A stretch of 64,000 nt of DNA from Raja brachyura (lineage: Eukaryota): positions 11,656,001 through 11,720,000 of the forward strand of contig OY740814.1 in the NCBI GenBank assembly GCA_963514005.1, written 5' to 3'. Positions 1,106 through 63,342 of the stretch are shown here, piece by piece. Both the position numbers and the translations under genes were made by a program. The notes beneath the pieces are model-generated. The model did not search any database. It saw only the letters and a program-made list of their open reading frames with translations, and was not told where the DNA came from. Within the stretch, counting starts at the first letter, position 1; each line of letters starts with the position of its first letter.

Positions 1106-2150
1106 CATAGAAACATAGAAAATAGGTGCAAGAGTAGCCATTCGGCCCTTCGAGCCTGCACCGCCATTCAATATGATCATGGCTGATCATCCAACTCAGT
1201 ATCCTGTACCTGCCTTCTCTCCATACCCCCTGATCCCTTTAGCTACAAGGGCCACATCTAACTCCCTCTTAAATATAGCCAATGAACTGGCCTCAACTAC
1301 CTTCTGTGGCAGAGAATTCCACAGATTCACCACTCTGTGTGAAAAATTATTTTCTCATCTCGATCCTAAAAGACCGTATACTTAAACTGTGACCCCTTGT
1401 TCTGGACTTCCCCAACATCGCGAACAATTTTCCTGCATCTGGCCTGTCCAATCCCTTAAGAATGTTGTAAGTCTCTATAAGATCCCCCCTCAATCTTCTA
1501 AATTCCAGCGAGTACAAGCCGAGTCTATCCAATCTTTCTTCATATGGAAGTCCTGCCATCCCAGGAATCAGTCTGGTGAACCTTCTCTGTACTCCCTCTG
1601 TGGCAAGAATGTCTTTCCTCAGATTAGGAGACCAAAACTGTACTCAATACTCCAGGTGTGGCCTCACCAAGACCCTGTACAACTGCAGTACAACCTCCCT
1701 GCTCTTGTACTCAAATCCTTTTGCTACGAATGCCAACATACCATTCGCTTTCTTCACAGCCTGCTGCACCTGCATGAATACTTTCAATGACTGGTGTACC
1801 ATGACATCCAGGTTTCGTTGCATCTCCCCTTTTCCTAATCAGCCACCATTCAGATAATAGTCTACCCTCCTGTTTTTGCTACCAAAGTGGATAACCTCAC
1901 ATTTATCCACATTATATTGCATCTGCCATGCATTTGCCCACTCACCCAACCTATCCAAGTCACCTTGCAGCCTAGCATCCTCCTCACAGCTAACACTGCC
2001 CCCTCAGCTTCGTGACATCCCCAAACTTGGAGATGTTGCATTCAATTCCCTCATCCAGATCATTAATATATATTGTAAATAGCTTGTAAATATATATTGA
2101 GCCTTGCGGTACCCCAGTTGCCATTGCCTGCCATTCTGAAAATGACCCAT
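1106..2150 (-). mobile_element. CR1-clade (HER1-like) LINE, 5'-truncated 3' fragment
   Basis: Minus ORF 1347-1559 GLPYEERLDRLGLYSLEFRRLRGDLIETY is the typical CR1 ORF2 C-terminus. The (TTCTATGT)n-type tail is at 1106-1122 and the 3' UTR is near-identical to the copy at 32502-32742. Confidence 0.92.
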
Positions 2151-22652: not shown

Positions 22653-22781
22653 TTTTTGGGTTACACAAAAAGCTGGAGAAACTCAGCGGGTGCAGCAGCA
22701 TCTAAGGAGCGAAGGAGATAGGCGACGTTTCAGGTCGAGACCCTTCTTCGATTCTCCAGCATCTGCAGTTCCTTCTTTAAC
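22653..22781. mobile_element. Penelope-pLTR-derived short element with inverted 5' segment
   Basis: TSD acaaggtagtc (22642-22652, 22782-22792). Segment 22658-22749 is the reverse complement of 30933-31024 with one mismatch, followed by a plus-oriented tail ccagcatctgcagttcctt. Confidence 0.88.
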
Positions 22782-23427: not shown

Positions 23428-23568
23428 CAGGGAAATGCAGATGCTAGAATCATGCTTACAACACAAAGTGCTAGAATAACTCGGAGGTCTCAGCCCAAAA
23501 TGTCATATATTCATATCCTCCAGAGATGATGCCTGACCCGCTGAGTTACTCCACACTTCGTGTTCTAA
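23428..23568. mobile_element. Penelope-pLTR-derived short element (diverged, partly inverted)
   Basis: Minus part tgcagatgct...acacaaagtgctagaataactc, then plus part ctccagagatgatgcctgacccgctgagttactcca. Confidence 0.7.
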
Positions 23569-23845: not shown

Positions 23846-23996
23846 GACAGAAAATGCAGGAGTAACTCAGCGGGACAGGTAGCATCTCTGGAGAGAAAGA
23901 ATGGGTGACATTTCGACCCAAAAAGGCACCCATTCCTTCTCTCCAGAGATGCTGCTTGTCCAGCTGAGTTACTCCTGCATTTTGTGTCTATCTTCG
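23846..23996. mobile_element. Penelope-pLTR-derived element forming a 62-bp-arm inverted repeat
   Basis: Arms 23846-23907 and 23927-23988 are reverse complements with 5 mismatches. Confidence 0.85.
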
Positions 23997-24803
23997 AGGA
24001 AAGGGTTGGAGCTTCAAGGTCAAACTGTGCACCATTTGTTCATTTTGTTATCAGGCTTTCAAAGATGTTAGATTCTCTCTCATCTTATCCATGCATTCCT
24101 GCCCCACCAATGTTCACTAAGTCCAAGACTTCATGAATTCTTCCTTTTGTCATGTCCGTACAGGCATAAAGCATTCACACAGCTTGATACCTCCTATTCC
24201 ATGCTCTAAAGTTATTTAGTGGAAGGGAAGTTGCACAAGAAGCTGACTGCTGCTGGAACTCAGTGGGTCAGGTAGCGTTTGGGGAAGATTTCAATTTGAA
24301 GAAGAATCCACCATTTCCCTCCACATATATTGCCTGACCTGCCGCGTTCCTCTGGCAATTTGCTATTTGCTCAGGATTTCAGCATCTTTAAATTCTTGTC
24401 TGCAAAATAACATACAAGTCCAGTTTGCAATTAAAAGTGTATCCCGAGTGTGGAAGAGGAGGATGTACGTAGTTCTGCGATGTTCTGTGGCTTCTTCCCT
24501 ACCACCTAATTCAAAATTTTAAGATTTTTCTTGATTTTACTGGAAGTATATTTTTCATGCGTTCTCTTTATCTTCCTGTGTAGGAAGGAGCTACAGATGA
24601 TCGCTTACATCGAAGATGAAATAGTGGACCACAAGAACACTAATATATTACTGTAATTTTAAAAAAGGCATAAATTAAGTCAATTTAATATTGGCAGTGA
24701 ACAAGTAGTTGAAATAAATTCTAAGTGAAAGCACAAAGCAGCAATTAAAGAGTAATTGGTCACAGTGAGTTATTCCTAGTGATAGATAAGTGGTCGAATC
24801 AAA

Positions 24804-30323: not shown

Positions 30324-30923
30324 TATTGAATGCATGCACAGAGTGTGAAGAATTACGTAGGTGAGATTTAGCAAGGAGCCATGGATATATACAGCAGAAA
30401 AGGTAAACAAACTTTCTCACAGAGAGAGAGAGAGGAAACAAATCAGGAGAGCAAATTAAATAAATTCCTTTGAATGAGACCTGCAAAGAGGTCACCTTCA
30501 TTTCCCTTAATTAAACAATGCTATTTAATTATTCAAATAGGTATAATTTTGGAATTCACCAAAGGCATGAACCAGGGTCACTTTAGCAGTTCAAGTTTGC
30601 ATCGAAGAAAGAAAAACTCATATTCAAAAGCATCATATCAGTGTAAGTGTTTCTAAAGGCTTCTCACAACCAGCTGGACCTTTGAATATGGTCATTTGTT
30701 GTTTGCATACCTCTTTGTTGGTTATGTCGAACAGTCCTTGTTCCAAACACACACTGGGACCTGATGAAGGTTCTCGACCCGAAACGTCACCTATTCCTTA
30801 TCTCCAGAAATGCTGCCTGACCGGCTGAGTTACTCCAGCATTTTGAGTTTATCCCCTCAACTCTTTCTCCACTACATTAACGACTACATTGGAGCTGCCT
30901 GCTACACCTGTCCAGAACTTATT

Positions 30924-30965
30924 GATTGGTCTGAAGAAGGGTCTCGACCCGAAACGTCGCCTATC
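30924..30965 (+). ncRNA. Predicted minimal type I hammerhead ribozyme
   Basis: CUGAAGA (30931-30937), extra A, stem II GGGU-CUCG-ACCC, GAAA, CG, UC. Predicted cut after C30958. Helix I gattggt/gcctatc. Confidence 0.78.
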
Positions 30966-31023
30966 TCCTTCGCTCCTTAGATGCTGCTGCACCCGCTGAG
31001 TTTCTCCAGCTTTTTGTGTAACC
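30928..31023 (+). mobile_element. Young 96-bp Penelope-pLTR-derived insertion
   Basis: TSD cttattgatt (30918-30927, 31024-31033). Confidence 0.9.
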
Positions 31024-32501
31024 CTTATTGATTTCATTTATCACTAACTTCCACCCTGCCCTCAAATTCACTTGGACTATCTGACAACTCTTCCCCAGTC
31101 ACAGGGCACAGACTATTGACTGATGTCTACTACAAACCCACCGACTCACACACCTCCTCTCACCCGTATCTTGCTAAGACGCCATCCCCTACCCTTAAAT
31201 TCTCCGTGTCTGCTGCATCAGCTCCCAAGATGAGGCTTTGCATTCCAGGACATCAGAGATATCCTCTTTCTTTGGTAATGTGTTCCCCCATATTGTCATA
31301 GACGGACCCCTTACCCGCATCTCCTCCGGGTTGCGTAGTTCTGCTCTCGCTTCCCGCTCTCCCCAGATGGAATAAGATTTTTGTCTCTAACCTTAGTCCC
31401 ACCATCTGCCTACGATACCATCTGTATCCACCTAATCCAAAGCCAGTCTTTAACCCGGCCCTCCTCTCTTCTTCCCCCACCCCCACCACAATCAGTCTGA
31501 AGAAGGGTCCCAACCCAAAACATCACCTATCCATGTTCTTCAGAGATGCTGCCTGACCTGTTGAGTTACTGCAGCACTTTGTGTCTTTAGCTGAAATGTC
31601 ACCTAATTTTCAGCAAAATCTTGGGTTATTGTTGGGTTTTATTTCTGTACGTAATGAGTACAAACACCAGATTAGTATTCTGAACTTTCAGGTCGGATTT
31701 CTTCAAATGGTATTTACATTCAGTATCTGCAATAGAACTGGTTTCATGAGATATGCTTCTGCAAAAGGCTATATTTTCCTGCATTTCACACGGGAACAGT
31801 TTGTTCCTACCTTTGCACTTCTACAGAGTGGCTTTTAAAGAGTGCTACATAAATCAGAAACATGGGGATGTTAAAGGAACTCTAGCCAAAAAATAAAAAT
31901 AATTTAATTTTAAATGTTGGGTAAATTGCACAAGAGTTGAGGAATGCAGGGGTCATAGACTATTGAGGGCGTTGGATTTATACAGGGACAAAGCTATGGA
32001 GAGATCTGGATAACATAAAAAAGCAGAATTTTAAAATAATTGAACAGAAAGCCAATACTGTACAAGGGAAAATGGCAAAGGACACATGGCTGGGTATCAG
32101 ATTTATCCAAATTTCCAATTTACAACAGCTGCAATCAAAAATTACTTTAAGAAAGATAAATACTGCTTTGATTGTGCAACTGAAAATCTTATTTTGTGAA
32201 GTACTTGTGTAAGCCCTCTGGTGGCAAGTAAAATATTCCATAAGGAACAATTCTGTGTTCAAGTGGTGCTTTCAGAACATTCTTCATCTGTTAAAATGTA
32301 AAAATCCCAGTGGCAGTATACAGGTTGTAACTGAATGGTCTTAAAAACAGCGATTGAGGTTCCAAATCCCACCAGTTAGGTAAAATCATTAGGCTCCGTC
32401 TGATTAATAATTTAGCTAATTAGGCAAAATGAGCACTATTGCAATATTAACAAATTACACAATAGATTTGAACCACATTGTGGTGAATTCCACAAATCCA
32501 C

Positions 32502-33507: not shown

Positions 33508-33589
33508 GTCAGAAGAAGGGTCTCGACCCTAAACGTCACCCATTCCTTCTCTCCTGTCCTGCTGAGTTACTCCAGCTTTTTGTGTCTAT
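33508..33589 (+). mobile_element. 82-bp Penelope-pLTR-derived insertion (hammerhead core mutated)
   Basis: TSD cttgtgtttatga (33495-33507, 33590-33602); core reads gtcagaagaagggtctcgaccctaaacgtc. Confidence 0.88.
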
Positions 33590-33796
33590 CTTGTGTTTAT
33601 GATCCATTGGATAGTTTTGGTTTCTGTTGCCAAACAGTGCGATCTTCTATTTACTACTTACTATTTACTGAGCTTTCCCTGAAACGTCATTCCATGTTCT
33701 CGCAATTATGAATAACATTTCTGCTGAGCTGTTATTTGGATTTCTTATCTTCTTAGGAAAATTAGATTAAAATGTATTCTGGGGAAACTATGCAGA

Positions 33797-33896
33797 GGTC
33801 TGAAGAAGGGTGTCGACCCGAAACATCACCTACTCCTTTTCTCCAGAGATGCTGTCTGACCTGCTAAGTTACTCCAGCTTTTTATGTCTATCTTCA
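33797..33896 (+). mobile_element. Penelope-pLTR-derived short element with hammerhead core
   Basis: ggtctgaagaagggtgtcgacccgaaacatcacc...ctccagagatgctg..agttactccagc. Confidence 0.85.
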
Positions 33897-34906
33897 AATA
33901 TCTAATCACTACCCTAGTGGTAAATTGGACAAAGGTTTCTGGATGAAAGAGTCACACAATTTATCCATTCTGCAATTTAACTTTAATTCTCAAAAATATT
34001 CCAACCCTACTTCTATCTATAGCGGAGATGTTAACTGCCTTTTGCCAAAAACCACAGCTGCTGGACGAATCAATTCCATGCCAAATTACTCATTCAGCCA
34101 TGAACAATGGGAAAGCAGAGCAGGGGAAAATAACAACTACAACATACAGCATTAACAATAAACTAAAGGATCCCTGCAGAGATCAATGACAAAACAAGTT
34201 TTCAACCACAATCACTATTTCAACCTAACCTTTAGATGATCACCTATAAACTCCGCCCCTCCAAATGATTCTGATGCCAATGACAATCAATGCTCACAGT
34301 ACATGCAATTATCTTGATTTTAATTTTGAATTGCTAATATTACCTTTGCATTAGCATTTTTAACTAAACTCTGCAATAAATAGGATGAGCCAATGTGCAA
34401 AATTAGTTTGTACTTGATTGTTTTGTGAACCACATATTGCTCATTTTTTCCCTCAAATTTCAAAAACTCATGTGTTGCCAACAGCTTGATTGCACAGCCC
34501 AGCGCATAGGCAATCACAATTGATGTTTGTACTACACCTCAGGCACATCCAGTGCCCTCCATAATGTTTGGGACAAAGACCCATCATTTAATTATTTGCC
34601 TCTGTACTCTACAATTTGAGATTTGTAATAGAAAAAAAAACATGTGGTTAAAGTGCACATTGTCAGATTTTATTAAAGGCCATTTTTATACATTTTGGTT
34701 TCATCATGTAGAAATTACAGCTGTGTTTATACAGTCCCCCCATTTCAGGGCACCATAATGTTTGGGACACATGGCTTCACAGGCATTTGTAATTGCTCAG
34801 ATGTGTCTAATTGCCTCCTTAATGCAGGTACAAGAGAGCTCTCAGCACCTAGTCTTTCCTTCAGTCTTTCCATCACCGTTGGAAACTTTTATTGCTGTTT
34901 ATCAAA

Positions 34907-35916
34907 ATGAGGACCAAAGTTGTGCCAATGAAAGTTAAAGAAGCCATTATGAGAATGAGAAACAAGAATAAAACTGTTAGAGACATCAGCAAACCTTAGG
35001 CTTATCAAAATCAACTGTTTGGCACATCATTAGGAAGAAAGAGAGCACTGGTGAGCTTACTAATCGCAAAGGGACTTGCAGGCCAAGGAAGACCTCCACA
35101 GAAGATGACAGAAGAATTCTCTCTATAATTTAAAAAAATCCCCAAACACCTGTCCGACAGATCAGAAACACTCTTCAGGAGTCGGGTGTTGATTGGTCAA
35201 TGACCACTGTTCTCAGAAGACTTGATGAACAGAAATACAGAGGCTACACTGCAAGATGCAAACCACTGGTTAGCCGCAATAATAGGGTGGCCAGGTTACA
35301 GTTTGCCAAGAAGTACTTAAAAAAAGAGCAACCACAGTTCTAGAAAAAGGTCTTGTGGACAGATGAAGATTAACTTATATCAGAGTGATGGCAAGAGCAA
35401 AGTATGGAGGAGAGAGGGAACTGTCCAAGATCTAAAGCATACCACCTCATCTGTGAAACACGATGGTGGGGGTGTTGTTATGGCCTGGGCATGTTTGGCT
35501 GCTGGAGGTACTAGCTCACTTATCTTCATTGATGATACAACTGCTGATGGTAGTAGCATAATGAATTCTGAAGTGTATAGGCACATCCCATCTACTCAAG
35601 TTCAACCAAATGCCTCAAAACTCATTGGCCGGTGGTTCATTCTACAGCAAGACGATGCAAAGCAACAAAGGAGTTTTTCAAAGTTAAAAAATGGTCAATT
35701 CTTGAGTGGCCAAGTCAATCCCCTATCTGAACCCAATTGAGCATGACTTTGAAATGCTGAAGAGAAAACTGAAGGGTACTAGCCCCCGAAATAAAGCACA
35801 AGCTAAAGATGGCTACAATACATGCCTGGCAGAGCATCACCAGAGAATACACCCAGCAACAGGTGATGTCCATGAATCGCAGACTTCAAGCAGTCATTGT
35901 ACAAAATACTAAACAT
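34907..35916 (+). pseudogene. Tc1 transposase pseudogene
   Basis: MRTKVVPMKVKEAI..., paired-like HTH, RPRKT, VLWTDE, VKHDGGGVVMAWAC, ILQQD, WPSQS and LNPIE motifs, with frameshifts and stop codons. Confidence 0.93.
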
Positions 35917-36722
35917 ATTAATTCTCCGACATTTTCAACCAATAGATAATCCTCCGACTTTTTCGCCACTTCCAACGGGATCCCACCACTGGCCACATCT
36001 TCCCATCTCCTCCCCTTTCAGCTTTCCACAGAGCCCGCTCCCTCCGTAACTCCCTAGTCAATTTGTCCCTTCCCACCCAAACCACCCACTCCCCTGGTAC
36101 TTTCCCTTGCAACTGCAGGAAATGCTACACTTGTCGCTTTACCTCCCCCCTTGACTTCATGCAAGGACCCAAGCAGTCTTTCCATGTGCGGCAGAGGTTC
36201 ACTTGCACATCCTCCAACACCATTTATTGCATCCACTGCTCTAGATCGGTGAGACCAAGCATAGGCTCGGCGATCGCTTCGCCCAACACCTTCACTCGGT
36301 TCGCACTAATCAACCTGATCTCCCAGTAGCCCAGCACTTCAACTCCCCATCCCATTCCGAATTCGACCTTTCTGTCCTGGGCCTCCTCCATGGCCAGAGT
36401 GAGTCCCACCACAATTTGGACGAGCAGCACCTCATATTTAGCTTAGGCAGTTTACACCCCAGCGGTATGAACATTGTATAGTGTCAGGTAGTCCTTGCTT
36501 TCTCCCTCCTTCCCCTCCCCTTCCAAGCTCTCCCACAGCCTACTGTCTCCTCCTCTTCCTTTCATCTGCTCCCCCCCCCACCTCCACATCAGTCTGAAGA
36601 TGGATCTCGACCCAAAATTTCACCTATTCCTTCGTTCCAAAGATGCTGCCTCACCCGATGAGTTTATTCAGCATTTTTGTCTACCTTCGATTTTTCCAGC
36701 ATCTGCAGTTCTTTCTTAAACA
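35917..36722 (+). mobile_element. Penelope-like element 3' part (GIY-YIG endonuclease remnant plus pLTR) nested in the Tc1
   Basis: PGTFPCNCRKCYTC..FTCTSSNTIYCIHCSR..GETKHRLGDRFAQHL. pLTR at 36590-36722. TSD aaaatactaaa(c/t)at at 35903-35916 and 36723-36736. Confidence 0.9.
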
Positions 36723-42292: not shown

Positions 42293-42632
42293 GACCCGAT
42301 GAAAAGTCTCAACCTAAAATGTCAACTGTCCATTTCCCTTCAAAGACTGCATGACCTGCTGCGTTCTCAGAGTTCTTCCAGCTGCTCTATTTTGAAGAAG
42401 GGGCTCGACCTGAAACGTCACCAATTCCTTCTCTCCAGAGATGCTGCCTGTCCCACTGAGTTATTGCAGCATTTTGTGTATATTTTCGATGTAAACCAGC
42501 ATCTGCAGTTCCTTCCGACACAAAAGAGATTGCAGATGCAGGAGTCTGAAGAAGGGTGCCAACCTGAACCATTGTTTGTCTATTTCTCTCCACAAATACT
42601 GCCTGGCCCTTTGATTTCCTCTAGTAGTTCTT
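42293..42632 (+). mobile_element. Cluster of three Penelope-pLTR-derived short elements
   Basis: Hammerhead-like starts at ~42297 (ccgatgaaaagtctcaacctaaaatgtc), 42392 (ttgaagaaggggctcgacctgaaacgtc) and 42546 (ctgaagaagggtgccaacctgaa). Confidence 0.8.
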
Positions 42633-43344: not shown

Positions 43345-44405
43345 GAATGCCTTTATTGTCATTCAGACCTTTCGGTCTGAACGAAATTTCGTGCCTGCAG
43401 TTATACATATATAAAAATAACAATACCATACAATAAACACAAAATTAACATCCTCCACAGTGAGTTCACCAAACACCTCCTCACTGTGGTGGAAGGCAAA
43501 AGTCTTAGGGTCTCCGTCTTTTCTCCCCTCCTTATTCTCCCTCTGCGCTGAGGGGATCCAGGCCGCCGCCACCGCTGACGCCGGAACACCGCCACAGGGC
43601 CCGCCGCCGGAACGTCGCTGGAGCACCGCAGCTCCCGAAAGCCAGGCCGCCGCTGGAGCACCGCAGCTCCCGAAAGCCAGGCCGCCGCTGGAGCACCGCA
43701 GCTCCCGAAACCCAGGCCGCCGCTGGAGCACCCAGCTCCCGAAACCCAGGCCGCCGCTGGAGCACCGCAGCTCAGAGGGAGCCAGGCCGCCGCTGGAGCA
43801 CCGCACTCAGAGGGAGCCAGGCCGCCGCTGGAGCACCGCAGCTCAGAGGGAGCCAGGCCGCCGCTGGAGCACCGCAGCTCCCGACACCCAAGCCGCCGCT
43901 GGAGCACCGCAGCTCCCGACACCCAGGCCGCCGCTGGAGCACCGCAGCTCCCGACACCCAGGCCGCCGCTGAAGCACCGCAGCTCCCGACACCCAGGCCG
44001 TCGCTGGAGCACCGCAGCTCAGAGGGAGCCAGGCCGCCGCTGGAGCACCGCAGCTCCCGACACCCAGGCCGCCGCTGGAGCACCGCAGCTCCCGAAGCCC
44101 AGGCCGCCGCCGGAAGCCAGGTCGCCGCTGAAGCTCTGAAGGCCGTGCCGCCGCCGCTGGAAGCTGGAAGGCCGTCACCAGGTCCTCAGCACAGACGGAG
44201 ACGGTGTCGGGGGACACGACAGGAAAAGTCGCATCCCCCCGAAGGGAGAGACTAAAACCCCGTTTCTCCCACCCTCCCCCCCCCCACACACATACACAAC
44301 CCGACAAACCAAAAATAAACACCAAAAACAGGGACGAGGACAAAAATAAAATAAAAGACAGACGGACCGCAGGTGAGCCGCAGCTGACAAGCAGCGCCAC
44401 CACTC
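43345..44405 (-). mobile_element. GC-rich non-autonomous retroposon family, copy C with expanded minisatellite
   Basis: ctttattgtcatt tail signature at 43351, hairpin ccacagtgag/ctcactgtgg, and 5' region similar to 16960-17160. Confidence 0.82.
43615..44110. repeat. GC-rich minisatellite, about 14 units of 35/36 bp
   Basis: Unit ccaggccgccgctggagcaccgcagctc followed by ccgacac, ccgaaag, ccgaaac or agagggag. Confidence 0.95.
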
Positions 44406-48645: not shown

Positions 48646-48771
48646 CAGGTTTGTTTCTACCCGAAACGTTGCCCATTTAATTCGCTCCATAGATGCTGCC
48701 TCACCCACTGAGTTTCTCCAGCATTTTTGTCTACCTTCGATTTTCGAGCATCTGCAGTTCCTTCTTAAACA
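48646..48771 (+). mobile_element. Penelope-pLTR-derived insertion, truncated within the hammerhead
   Basis: TSD aactgaaatagta (48633-48645, 48772-48784); body matches 36610-36722. Confidence 0.88.
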
Positions 48772-54469: not shown

Positions 54470-54987
54470 TAATAATAATAATATCTTTTATTGTCATTAC
54501 ACATAAGTGCAACGAAATTTGGTTTGCAACTTCGAGATTTCGGTTTGCAACCCCCGAGAACAAGGTTTGTAAAAACGAACATTTGACCGGTAACATCAAC
54601 ACAGACTAAAGTGCAAGGCCAGGGGAGATAGTCCATGGGGGGGGGGGGGGGGGGGTACTCAGCAGGGCCGGTTCAGAGCCGCTATAGCTCTGGGAATGAA
54701 GCTATTCCTGAGTCTGGTGTTGCGGGCGTAGAAGGCCTTGTAACGTCTGCCGGAAGGGAGTAGTTCGAACAGTCCATTACAAGGGTGAGAGGAGTCTTTA
54801 TGGATGCTGGCGGCCTTCCTGATGCACCGTGTGTGGTAGATGCCCTCCAAGGCTGGTAGCGGTGTCCCAATAATCTGTTGCGCTCTGTGGACAACGCACT
54901 GAAGAGCTCTCCTCTCCGCCTCCGTGCAGCTGAGATACCACACAGAGATGCCATACGTTAGTATGCTCTCTGTGGTGCAGCGGTATA
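54470..54987 (-). mobile_element. Rex1/Babar/L2-like LINE 3' end, young
   Basis: Intact ORF2 C-terminus YRCTTESILTYGISVWY...LPSGRRYKAFYARNTRLRNSFIPRAIAALN, then aatgacaataaa and an (att)n tail. Confidence 0.88.
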
Positions 54988-56000
54988 AGGTATAAAAGCA
55001 ATATGGTTTCATCGGTGAGAATTTTCACTTTCGCAATATTGACTAGGATTGCTTTATTCCAAGGGAATTGGATAGGGTAGAGTTCATAAAATGCATGCCT
55101 ATGTCCAAATAATACTATTTGAATTGAAGTGGAAACAGGTGGCAAGCTTGGAAGGCAGGTTAGATAAGACATATGCGTCGTATTCTTTGAAGTAATTATC
55201 AATGAAGCAAGGCTGCTGAGCTGAGGACGCACAGACTCATGTGGAACTATAGTCTAACCACTACAAAAACACATTTGAGGCCATGAATTGCAGCTCATTA
55301 TTCGTAATTACAATTTCAGATATGAAATATGGGTGTCATTGCAATACTGGTTAAAAGACAATTACAGCTGTGCAAACAACTGATATACTGGTAAGAAAAA
55401 AAAAGTTGCCATATCAGACATATAATGAAAAACCACTTAAACAACATTGCAATCAATATAAGTTACATGTAAAGATTCCAACAGATACCCGCTGCAAAAG
55501 CAATCTGGAATTGAATAATTCAATCGGATTACTACTTAAACAGCAATGCGAGATCACCATAAAATCATGCATATTCCCTTTTTTTCAACCAGGGTTTAAC
55601 ATTAGTTATTTTAGGAATTTTGTAGATTTGAAGATTGTTATCAACAAAACTTGGACAAAGCAAATTTGATTTGACCATCAAGTTAAAATGTACGGAAATT
55701 TTACGAAAATCGCAGAATAGTAAAATCTAAGTTGTATGTTCGCAATGATCAACAATATGCTCTCCATAATATAAGCTGTTTTAAAGACCAAAATATATTT
55801 AACAGCATCTTTCATCAAGAAACCAGGAAAAGAATCATGCGATGAAAAACAGTCATTCTTGGTCCCAATTACACCATTTCAGCTAGATTGTAAGTCTCTT
55901 GCTACCGGAAATATCAGTTCAGATAAGGAATGATAAATGAACATTCTTGCTCTCAGAAGGTTAGAAATTGTGAGTCTACTTGATAAAAATGGCTACTTAC

Positions 56001-57480: not shown

Positions 57481-57669
57481 CACGAAGATGGGCTGGAGTA
57501 ACTCAGCGAGACAGGCAACACCTCTGCATAGAAGGAATGGGTGACGTTTCGGATCGAGACCCTTCTTCTGACAAATTCCTTCTATCTAGGGATGTTGCCT
57601 GTCTCGCTGAGTTACTCCAGCATTGTGTGTCCATCTTTGGTGTGAACCAGCATCTGCAGTTCCTTCCTA
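57481..57669. mobile_element. Penelope-pLTR-derived insertion with inverted 5' segment
   Basis: TSD tccattgatttc (57469-57480, 57670-57681). Minus segment 57492-57572, then a plus segment. Confidence 0.88.
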
Positions 57670-63227: not shown

Positions 63228-63342
63228 ACAAGAGACTAGATGCTGAGGGGAAAAAAAGTGCTGAGGGAATTCAGCGGCTCAGGCAGCATTTGTGGAGGGA
63301 AATGGCAAATGGGATGACTTTCTGGACCAGATCCTTTCACAA
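63228..63342 (-). mobile_element. Degenerate Penelope-pLTR-derived short element
   Basis: aaagtgctgagggaattcagcggctcaggcagcatttgtggagggaaatgg matches the family in reverse. Confidence 0.65.

What the first reader, a model, noticed from the sequence alone, without database searches (positions are those of the whole stretch)
30924..30965. Minimal hammerhead ribozyme carried by an abundant short Penelope-derived element
Seen in sequence: CUGAAGA-A-GGGU(CUCG)ACCC-GAAA-CG-UC is intact here. It is recognisable at about 22720 (minus), 30761, 31497, 33510, 33800, 36594, 42297, 42392, 42546, 48660 and 57543 (minus). The same motif lies directly after the GIY-YIG remnant (36594) and the RT remnant (31497), tying it to the Penelope pLTR. 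Established: Penelope-like elements carry minimal type I hammerheads whose helix III is a palindromic ACGU suited to dimeric cleavage, and an extra nucleotide after A9 is tolerated. Inference: more than a dozen copies in 64 kb suggests a very large genome-wide family of retrozyme-like non-autonomous elements in this lineage.
Basis: partly seen in the sequence, partly recalled or inferred. Interest (0 to 1): 0.75.

Follow-up and report, generated by a model that had tools for sequence, protein, structure and literature searches.

The report
Uncut Penelope hammerhead in mini inserts
This is a known kind of tiny RNA-cutting motif (a minimal hammerhead) in the terminal repeat of a Penelope retrotransposon, pasted through the genome hundreds of thousands of times as ~97-133-base inserts that were likely copied from the capped, uncut front end of the transposon's RNA rather than spreading as a self-cutting circular-RNA family.

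Summary
The motif is real: the 28-nt core occurs exactly 50,608 times in the 2.7-Gb genome, and the family has about 340 copies per Mb. It is the minimal hammerhead of a Penelope-like pseudo-LTR, a class known since 2014. Across subfamilies the catalytic and helix II positions do not vary (0 of 21 columns, against 18 of 59 in the flank). Three corrections. (1) The 7-bp helix I at 30924 is mostly borrowed from the 10-bp target duplication; the element encodes only 2 bp. (2) The copy is a 96-97-nt solo pLTR, not a retrozyme. Tandem arrays are rare, and only 151 of 46,065 young copies begin at the cleavage site (control 86). (3) Most young copies begin 2-5 nt upstream of the core, with a 2.5-3-fold excess of an extra G, and end at two fixed sites 35 nt apart. 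The likely source is run-off cDNA from capped, uncleaved element RNA, primed internally as shown in vitro for the Anolis element. Cleavage itself is untested. New member of a known kind.

The parts
30928..31023 (+). Solo pseudo-LTR insertion (96-97 nt, short 3' end, no tail) of the young subfamily
   Evidence: 99% identical over 92 nt to the copy at 22658-22749; bounded by a target duplication
30918..30927 (+). Left copy of the 10-bp target-site duplication; supplies the outer 5' strand of the apparent helix I
   Evidence: Same 10-mer recurs at 31024-31033; uninterrupted homologous RT DNA in L087 aligns to both flanks
31024..31033 (+). Right copy of the target-site duplication (C31024 may belong to element or target)
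30928..30928 (+). Extra G at the 5' junction, inferred to be a reverse-transcribed cap
   Evidence: Element reference has A here; G excess genome-wide
30931..30958 (+). Minimal hammerhead: C3-A9 30931-30937, extra A 30938, helix II 30939-30942/30947-30950, G12-A14 30951-30953, palindromic ACGU 30954-30957, C17 30958 (predicted cut between 30958 and 30959)
   Evidence: Sequence; exact count 50,608; subfamily conservation
30929..30960 (+). Element-encoded helix I: only G30929-C30960 and U30930-G30959
   Evidence: Helix I of 2 bp in 37 of 69 descriptor hits, 4 bp or more in 2 of 69
30702..31417 (+). Older broken Penelope RT remnant that received both the 30761 and the 30928 insertions
   Evidence: tblastn and blastn with L086/L087
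30759..30853 (+). Older short pLTR copy inserted in the same RT remnant (CUGAUGA core, mismatch in helix II)
31495..31588 (+). Degenerate pLTR 3' of the RT remnant (G12 lost)
35940..36475 (+). RT-thumb/GIY-YIG remnant, frameshifted
   Evidence: 78-80% identity to the L087 ORF, whose C-terminus hits PF01541 below its cut-off
36592..36721 (+). 3' pLTR plus ~35-nt tail of that remnant (G12 lost)
22659..22750 (-). Young copy starting at G5, preceded by an inverted tail piece
23485..23559 (+). Degenerate copy
23846..23997 (.). Head-to-head inverted pair of truncated copies
24285..24361 (+). Weak degenerate copy
   Evidence: E 0.003
33508..33592 (+). Copy with U4 and G12 changed and an internal deletion
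33796..33899 (+). Copy with intact core but palindrome lost (ACAU)
42296..42626 (+). Three degenerate copies in a row (42296, 42392, 42544)
48652..48760 (+). Copy starting inside helix II, with tail
57489..57637 (.). Head-to-head inverted pair
63253..63339 (-). Old degenerate copy

Best explanation
The motif is the minimal hammerhead at the start of the pseudo-LTR of a Penelope-like retrotransposon, and the 30928-31023 insert is a solo pLTR likely made when the element's reverse transcriptase primes inside its own RNA and runs off the capped, uncleaved 5' end. Shown: element layout pLTR - 35-nt tail - leader - ATG - RT - GIY-YIG - 3'UTR - pLTR, with a 3.93-kb unit; two fixed 3' ends; a sharp 5' boundary 2-5 nt upstream of C3; a G excess at that boundary; target duplications; subfamily-level conservation of the core and helix II. 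Inferred: (1) Pol II starts at the initiator-like CCAGTCT, mostly at the A or G, so the RNA's 5' end leaves room for only 2 bp of helix I; (2) the GIY-YIG domain nicks the target, and RT starts at one of two sites about 97 and 133 nt into the RNA, as shown in vitro for Anolis PAc; (3) when RT starts in the 5' pLTR the cDNA ends at the cap (extra G) and is joined directly, folds back (head-to-head pairs) or jumps template (partial tandems); when it starts in a 3' pLTR it gives 5'-truncated copies with 3'UTR or ORF; (4) the ribozyme is predicted to be off in free RNA and to cut only with protein help or as a dimer, and cutting is not needed for insertion.
For: Layout; RVT_1 31.8 bits (cut-off 29.6) and GIY-YIG 17.8 bits (cut-off 22.6) on the 699-aa frame of L086. 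5' boundary, exact-match survival of young copies upstream of C3: 29,497 (0), 24,671 (-2), 12,054 (-5), 8,618 (-11), 6,920 (-26), i.e. 8.6, 21.2, 5.4 and 1.5% lost per nt. In 90 random 10-kb stretches, 175 of 311 copies reach the core start: 88 have unique upstream DNA, 36 an inverted copy, 51 shared upstream DNA. Extra G: GGT 4,033 vs YGT 3,000 (1.34, expected 0.43) and GAGT 2,039 vs WAGT 2,108 (0.97, expected 0.38); an extra G marks full-length L1 insertions (PMC11702581, passage). 3' ends: 43,934 reach the short end, 14,120 continue into the tail, and a leader pattern past the tail is found 769 times. Cleavage-site starts: 151 of 46,065, against 86 at a control site 5 nt downstream. Target duplication of 7 nt or more in 9 of 15 solo copies. 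Conservation: 0 of 21 constrained columns vs 18 of 59 flank columns vary (Fisher p=0.002); the variable sites are loop II, H17 (C/U), 1.1 (A/G) and 1.2 (C/U), all compatible with the fold. Helix II has probability <=0.01 in natural contexts. Anolis PAc: internal RT starts, tail between them, protein-assisted hammerhead, cleavage not needed (PMC11167929, main text).
Against: No RNA 5'-end data: only contigs were offered, so the start site and cap are inferred from DNA junctions. The GAGT count is inflated by a multicopy composite (5 of 30 loci read), the W pattern was 7 nt shorter than the G pattern, and A/G-rich targets or microhomology can also give G (L279, L300). Only 4 of 27 classified GAGT loci had a duplication of 8 nt or more; many of these are inverted pairs. 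The boundary is spread over about 8 nt. With loop, N7, the extra A and H17 included, the conservation contrast is 3 of 28 vs 18 of 59, p=0.06, and an internal promoter in the same 30 nt could share the constraint. No intact full-length ORF was found among 150 scored of 64,900 candidates (longest open frame 699 aa).
Confidence: 0.7

Rival explanations
1. The short copies are ordinary 5'-truncated copies of the 3' pLTR. The boundary upstream of the core is an RT stall or template-switch hot spot, or a 3' splice site (pyrimidine-rich ...CAG|T, like the intron end next to helix I in D. virilis Penelope), not a transcription start.
For: The sequence upstream of the core is pyrimidine-rich and ends in CAG in several subfamilies. 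The D. virilis intron ends at helix I (PMC4209133). PLE copies are commonly 5'-truncated (PMC8557442, passages).
Against: No shared upstream exon was seen in solo copies; the extra bases are short and look locally templated. The whole 3'UTR is pyrimidine-rich. A G excess at both -3 and -4 is expected from a cap on staggered starts, not from stalling. Loss per nt falls to 1.5% just upstream.
Confidence: 0.2
2. One reading: a retrozyme-like non-autonomous family whose tandem hammerheads release unit-length linear or circular RNAs that are copied back into the genome.
For: Rare arrays fit: L232 has three hammerheads 311 nt apart inside one target duplication, and L233 has a 328-nt unit. The L232 junction recurs at a second locus. 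PLE-derived retrozymes are reported, including in one chondrichthyan (bioRxiv 10.64898/2026.07.22.740005).
Against: The 311-nt junction occurs 4 times at 2 loci, against tens of thousands of solo copies. The 30 leader-containing loci read have nearly all different junctions. Solo copies hold a single hammerhead and cannot release a unit. 0 of 175 sampled copies were classed as direct tandems within 45 nt. The dimer fold of L232 costs about 18 kcal/mol over the free fold. In the preprint, 8 of 9 tested dimers did not cleave.
Confidence: 0.08
3. In this lineage the hammerhead no longer cuts. The sequence is kept as an internal promoter or protein-binding site, and the fold is a relic. (This is independent of how the copies arose.)
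For: Helix I of 2 bp; a competing CGAC/GUCG hairpin dominates in the young subfamily; the motif fills the first 30 nt after the inferred start, where Penelope has an internal promoter (PMC2377424, passages); integrated copies are uncut.
Against: Variation avoids the stems and catalytic bases but not loop II, and every change at 17, 1.1 and 1.2 is one the fold tolerates. D. virilis Penelope also has a 2-bp helix I and cleaved weakly when helix III was extended (PMC4209133). The Anolis hammerhead cuts with its protein (PMC11167929).
Confidence: 0.3

Closest known systems
Minimal hammerheads (min-HHR) of metazoan Penelope-like elements (Cervera and De la Pena 2014, PMC4209133)
   Same: Conserved core, extra nucleotide between 9 and 10.1, G10.1-C11.1, palindromic 15.2-16.2 with no loop 3, position in the pLTR, mostly found as single motifs and some as close opposite-strand pairs.
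   Different: Helix I is 2 bp (4-5 bp in the S. mansoni families; 2 bp in D. virilis). Helix II is 4 bp. Numbers are far higher: about 73,000 copies with intact core, palindrome and helix II by extrapolation (34 in 1.26 Mb), against about 4,000 in coelacanth and 9,000 in Xenopus in that paper.
Poseidon element PAc of Anolis carolinensis (Frangieh et al. 2024, PMC11167929)
   Same: Hammerhead at the pLTR, two 3' ends that bound a 30-40-nt tail, insertion from uncleaved RNA.
   Different: In PAc the ORF starts at helix II. Here the long ORF starts about 36 nt past the tail. The passages read do not describe mass solo-pLTR insertion or a cap-derived G.
Non-LTR retrozymes (Cervera and De la Pena 2020, PMC7229834; Li et al. 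2026 preprint)
   Same: Type I hammerhead, PLE origin; rare 311- and 328-nt arrays here have this layout.
   Different: The bulk are single-hammerhead 97/133-nt inserts, not tandem 150-450-nt units, and the hammerhead is minimal, not canonical.
Solo pLTRs of Adineta vaga Penelope (Arkhipova et al. 2013, PMC3846280)
   Same: Solo pLTRs, inverted pLTRs with palindromic junctions, tail, target duplications of 8-10 bp, initiator-like sequence in the pLTR.
   Different: There, several solo pLTRs lacked duplications and were ascribed to recombination or deletion. Here 9 of 15 have their own duplication, so they are insertion products.

Membership tests
Minimal PLE hammerhead (min-HHR) | Core C3-U4-G5-A6-N7-G8-A9 and G12-A13-A14, A15.1-U16.1, H17 | tested here: met
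   30931-30958; invariant across 3-4 subfamilies
Minimal PLE hammerhead (min-HHR) | Extra nucleotide after A9 and G10.1-C11.1 closing helix II | tested here: met
   A30938; G30939-C30950
Minimal PLE hammerhead (min-HHR) | Palindromic 15.2-16.2, no helix III as monomer | tested here: met
   ACGU at 30954-30957; commonest state in the sample
Minimal PLE hammerhead (min-HHR) | Helix I of 4-5 bp (usual form; the D. virilis variant has 2 bp) | tested here: not met
   2 bp in 37 of 69 hits, 4 bp or more in 2 of 69; matches the D. virilis variant only
Minimal PLE hammerhead (min-HHR) | Located in the pLTR, sense to the ORF | tested here: met
Minimal PLE hammerhead (min-HHR) | Self-cleavage (dimer or protein-assisted) | not testable with these tools
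   No raw RNA reads offered; folding only
Penelope-like element, endonuclease-containing | One ORF with RT and C-terminal GIY-YIG | tested here: met
   L086 699-aa frame: RVT_1 above cut-off, GIY-YIG E 0.004 below cut-off; no fully intact copy seen
Penelope-like element, endonuclease-containing | Direct and inverted pLTRs, partial tandems | tested here: met
   L086 inverted plus direct; L235 3.93-kb tandem
Penelope-like element, endonuclease-containing | Optional 30-40-nt tail | tested here: met
   3' ends at about +61-66 and +94-102 from the cut site; 14,120 of 43,934 enter the tail
Penelope/Poseidon clade | RT phylogeny grouping with Poseidon | not tested
   No reference PLE proteins were on hand; the clade name is a recalled resemblance
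Non-LTR retrozyme | Tandem units of about 150-450 bp, each with a type I hammerhead | tested here: not met
   Not met for the finding or the bulk; met only by rare arrays L232 and L233
Non-LTR retrozyme | Canonical type I hammerhead with usual helix sizes and loop 1-loop 2 contact | tested here: not met
   2-bp helix I, no loop 3
Non-LTR retrozyme | Unit-length linear and circular RNAs | not testable with these tools
   Contigs only

The most novel reading that the evidence does not exclude
Internal priming by Penelope RT at the 5' pLTR yields a 'strong-stop'-like cDNA that is integrated directly. A third to two thirds of a several-hundred-thousand-copy family would then be SINE-sized by-products of the autonomous RNA's capped 5' end, needing no non-autonomous master. 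This gives a genome-scale in vivo map of the start site, both RT start sites and the non-use of cleaved RNA. Each insert may also carry the promoter, and occasional tandem pairs would be newborn retrozymes.
Probability: 0.55. Interest if true: 0.55.

Novelty: new member of a known kind. Interest (0 to 1): 0.38.

Why it matters
What PLE hammerheads do, and how PLEs make pLTRs, tails and inverted ends, is open (PMC8557442, PMC11167929). This family offers tens of thousands of near-identical junctions. They agree with the single in vitro reconstitution (two internal RT starts, uncleaved template) and add a likely start site and cap signature. It also warns that isolated min-HHR hits in such genomes can owe their helix I to flanking DNA, and that solo copies should not be counted as retrozymes. 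The motif class itself is not new.

Tried and rejected
Rfam scan: no hammerhead family at E<=1. Fold z-scores of 0.15, 0.15, 0.82 and -1.45 show no unusual stability. One search was a faulty control (its pattern admitted the reference base, 2,562 hits) and was replaced; the total for the control's own anchor was not counted. Of the first 30 of 151 cleavage-site starts, by my reading 11 join host DNA, 12 join an inverted copy, 4 are small indels in whole copies and 3 belong to one 61-nt array, so 151 overstates true starts. A spliced exon that would supply a longer helix I was looked for by eye in solo-copy junctions and the 3'UTR, and none was seen. Sequencing runs: 24 listed, all contigs; laying 8 of them showed the family in other runs but no RNA start, end or circle. 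The search for a fully intact ORF failed. The self-blast coverage map was uninformative. Earlier scan findings: none returned. Literature searches for hammerhead+shark+Penelope-like (1 review, listing only), skate+Penelope (3, listing only), solo pLTR (1) and Penelope+SINE+cartilaginous (3, listing only) found no description of this family; Repbase and Dfam could not be checked and may hold it. A paper recalled on dimeric cleavage of PLE hammerheads was not held. Supplements of Cervera 2014 and of the 2026 preprint were not seen and may list this species' motifs.

Full report
Observation. The hammerhead core lies at 30931-30958 on the + strand as described, and no shuffle of the window gives it. 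nhmmer with two natural copies finds 18 distinct related copies in the window. My descriptor (core intact, helix II of 3 bp or more, two bases between GAAA and UH) passes 2 of them, 30931 and 33800, and only 30931 keeps the ACGU palindrome. Rfam returns no hammerhead.

Abundance. The 28-mer occurs exactly 50,608 times in the 2.7-Gb genome, with 0 for the reversed control. In 126 evenly spaced 10-kb stretches (1.26 Mb), a search anchored only on the part 3' of the hammerhead finds 429 copies and 0 in reversed sequence: about 340 per Mb, roughly 0.9 million by extrapolation. Of 326 copies aligned over both halves, 86 keep the catalytic bases and 34 also keep the palindrome and helix II. The genome looks like a cartilaginous fish's; that is a recalled resemblance and was not tested.

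It belongs to a Penelope-like element. A 699-aa frame in L086 hits RVT_1 above its cut-off and GIY-YIG below it, and is flanked by an inverted and a direct copy of the repeat. Loci that continue past the repeat show pLTR, a 35-nt tail, a short leader and then an ATG that opens the long ORF; L235 holds two units 3.93 kb apart. In the window the repeat follows a GIY-YIG remnant (35940-36475) and an RT remnant (30702-31417).

The copy in question. 30928-31023 is a young solo repeat inserted in that RT remnant, between two copies of a 10-mer (30918-30927, 31024-31033); uninterrupted RT DNA in L087 aligns to both flanks. In the 97-nt insert and in longer natural contexts, helix II has a probability of 0.01 or less, because a CGAC/GUCG hairpin competes.

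Is the motif under selection? Copies were clustered by 18 flank columns; 261 of 326 with a whole 5' part were kept. Between the 3-4 large clusters only loop II position 2, position 1.1 (A/G) and position 1.2 (C/U, in one cluster of 13) change, and all keep the fold. Without clustering, a non-CpG minor allele of 10% or more occurs in 3 of 28 columns from C3 to H17 (two loop bases and H17 C/U) and in 18 of 59 flank columns (p=0.06). Restricted to the 21 catalytic, stem and palindrome columns it is 0 of 21 (p=0.002); that restriction was chosen from the known hammerhead model after seeing the table. An overlapping internal promoter could share this constraint.

Where copies end. 3' ends fall in two groups, about 61-66 and 94-102 nt past the cut site. 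Genome-wide, 43,934 young copies reach the first, 14,120 go 15 nt into the tail, and a leader pattern beyond the tail occurs 769 times. This matches the two internal RT start sites and the tail shown for Anolis PAc (PMC11167929, main text parts 1-2 of 4 read). 5' ends pile up just upstream of the core: exact matches fall from 29,497 at C3 to 24,671 at -2, 12,054 at -5, 8,618 at -11 and 6,920 at -26, a loss of 21% per base between -2 and -5 and 1.5% further up. In 90 of the random stretches, 175 of 311 copies reach the core start; 88 have unique upstream DNA, 36 an inverted copy and 51 shared DNA, some of it diverged inverted copies. Where the base before GT or AGT is not the reference, G is in 2.5-3-fold excess over genome composition: 4,033 G vs 3,000 C/T, and 2,039 G vs 2,108 A/T. 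A multicopy composite inflates the G counts (5 of 30 GAGT loci read); removing a sixth leaves about 2-fold. An extra G at the 5' junction reflects capping in full-length L1 insertions (PMC11702581, one passage). CCAGTCT fits the initiator consensus (recalled), and Penelope pLTRs hold internal promoters (PMC2377424 and PMC3846280, passages). In contrast, 151 of 46,065 young copies have two non-matching bases right before the cut site, against 86 at a site 5 nt downstream: about 0.9% after correcting for chance matches, and only 11 of the 30 read join host DNA. Nine of 15 solo copies from unselected sets have a target duplication of 7 nt or more, often with a short filler.

Mechanism. The simplest reading is that the element is transcribed from just upstream of the hammerhead; its protein nicks a target and starts cDNA at one of the two internal sites. 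Starting in the 5' pLTR gives a 97- or 133-nt cDNA that ends at the cap and is joined, folds back or jumps. Starting in a 3' pLTR gives ordinary truncated copies. The template was uncleaved, as in the Anolis system, where the hammerhead cuts only with protein and is dispensable for insertion. Start site, cap and cleavage are inferred; the runs offered were contigs only. The cut-site count shows only what was integrated: cleaved RNA could exist and be a poor template.

Retrozymes. Retrozymes are tandem units each with a hammerhead (PMC7229834, passages; bioRxiv 10.64898/2026.07.22.740005, parts 1-3 of 5 read). Such arrays exist here: L232 has three hammerheads 311 nt apart within one target duplication and L233 a 328-nt unit. 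But the 311-nt junction occurs 4 times at 2 loci, and the 30 leader-bearing loci read have mostly private junctions. I counted only this one junction, so other, larger array families are not excluded.

Comparison and verdict. Minimal hammerheads in metazoan pLTRs, their single and opposite-strand occurrence, and a 2-bp helix I in D. virilis were described in 2014 (PMC4209133, parts 1-2 of 4 read); the general PLE layout is in PMC8557442 (passages). Four searches found no description of this family; repeat databases could not be checked. The finding is a new, very abundant member of a known kind. The added value is the junction statistics, which point to direct integration of cap-terminated pLTR cDNA. 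Interest 0.38.

Noticed in passing
L275, L282, L288, L294, L295 (G000:C1:3.81, 10.78, 18.64/15.59, 21.06, 21.21 Mb region hits), around locus position 1100-2100: Five of 30 loci share the same composite: a head-to-head pLTR pair, about 270 nt of GC-rich unique DNA with its own inverted repeat, and a further inverted pLTR, with identical flanks. It is either a multicopy element that carries pLTR insertions or DNA moved by flanking pLTRs.
   Followed up: partly
L232:3570-4490 (G000:C1:162,939,570-162,940,490) and L219; L233:3030-3780: Internally deleted PLE units of 311 and 328 nt in head-to-tail arrays, each unit with a hammerhead; L232 is bounded by a target duplication of about 12 bp. Candidates for newborn retrozymes.
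   Followed up: partly
L139-L141 (G000:C2:55,272,483-55,272,700): A tandem array of a 61-nt unit that starts exactly at the predicted cleavage site and ends at the short 3' end.
   Followed up: no
window 30702-31417: Two independent pLTR insertions (30761 and 30928) lie within 170 bp in the same older Penelope RT remnant.
   Followed up: partly
L212/L234:5105-5998 and loci L202-L231: A short upstream ATG inside the pLTR opens a frame of about 41 codons that overlaps the long ORF's start (read from sequence); possible translational control.
   Followed up: no
runs X1, X5 laid on window 30880-31080: Several contigs go back 36-37 nt from 30964/30965 to 30929, i.e. two hammerheads in very close tandem.
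   Followed up: no
window 43616-44114: GC-rich 35-bp minisatellite, 14 copies, open in several frames.
   Followed up: no
window 35321-35940: Frame resembling a Tc1-type transposase remnant (recalled resemblance; no Pfam hit), interrupted by the Penelope fragment at 35940.
   Followed up: no
window 1386-1857 (+) and 54659-55253 (-): Fragments resembling CR1/L2-type LINE ORFs (recalled resemblance; no Pfam hit).
   Followed up: no
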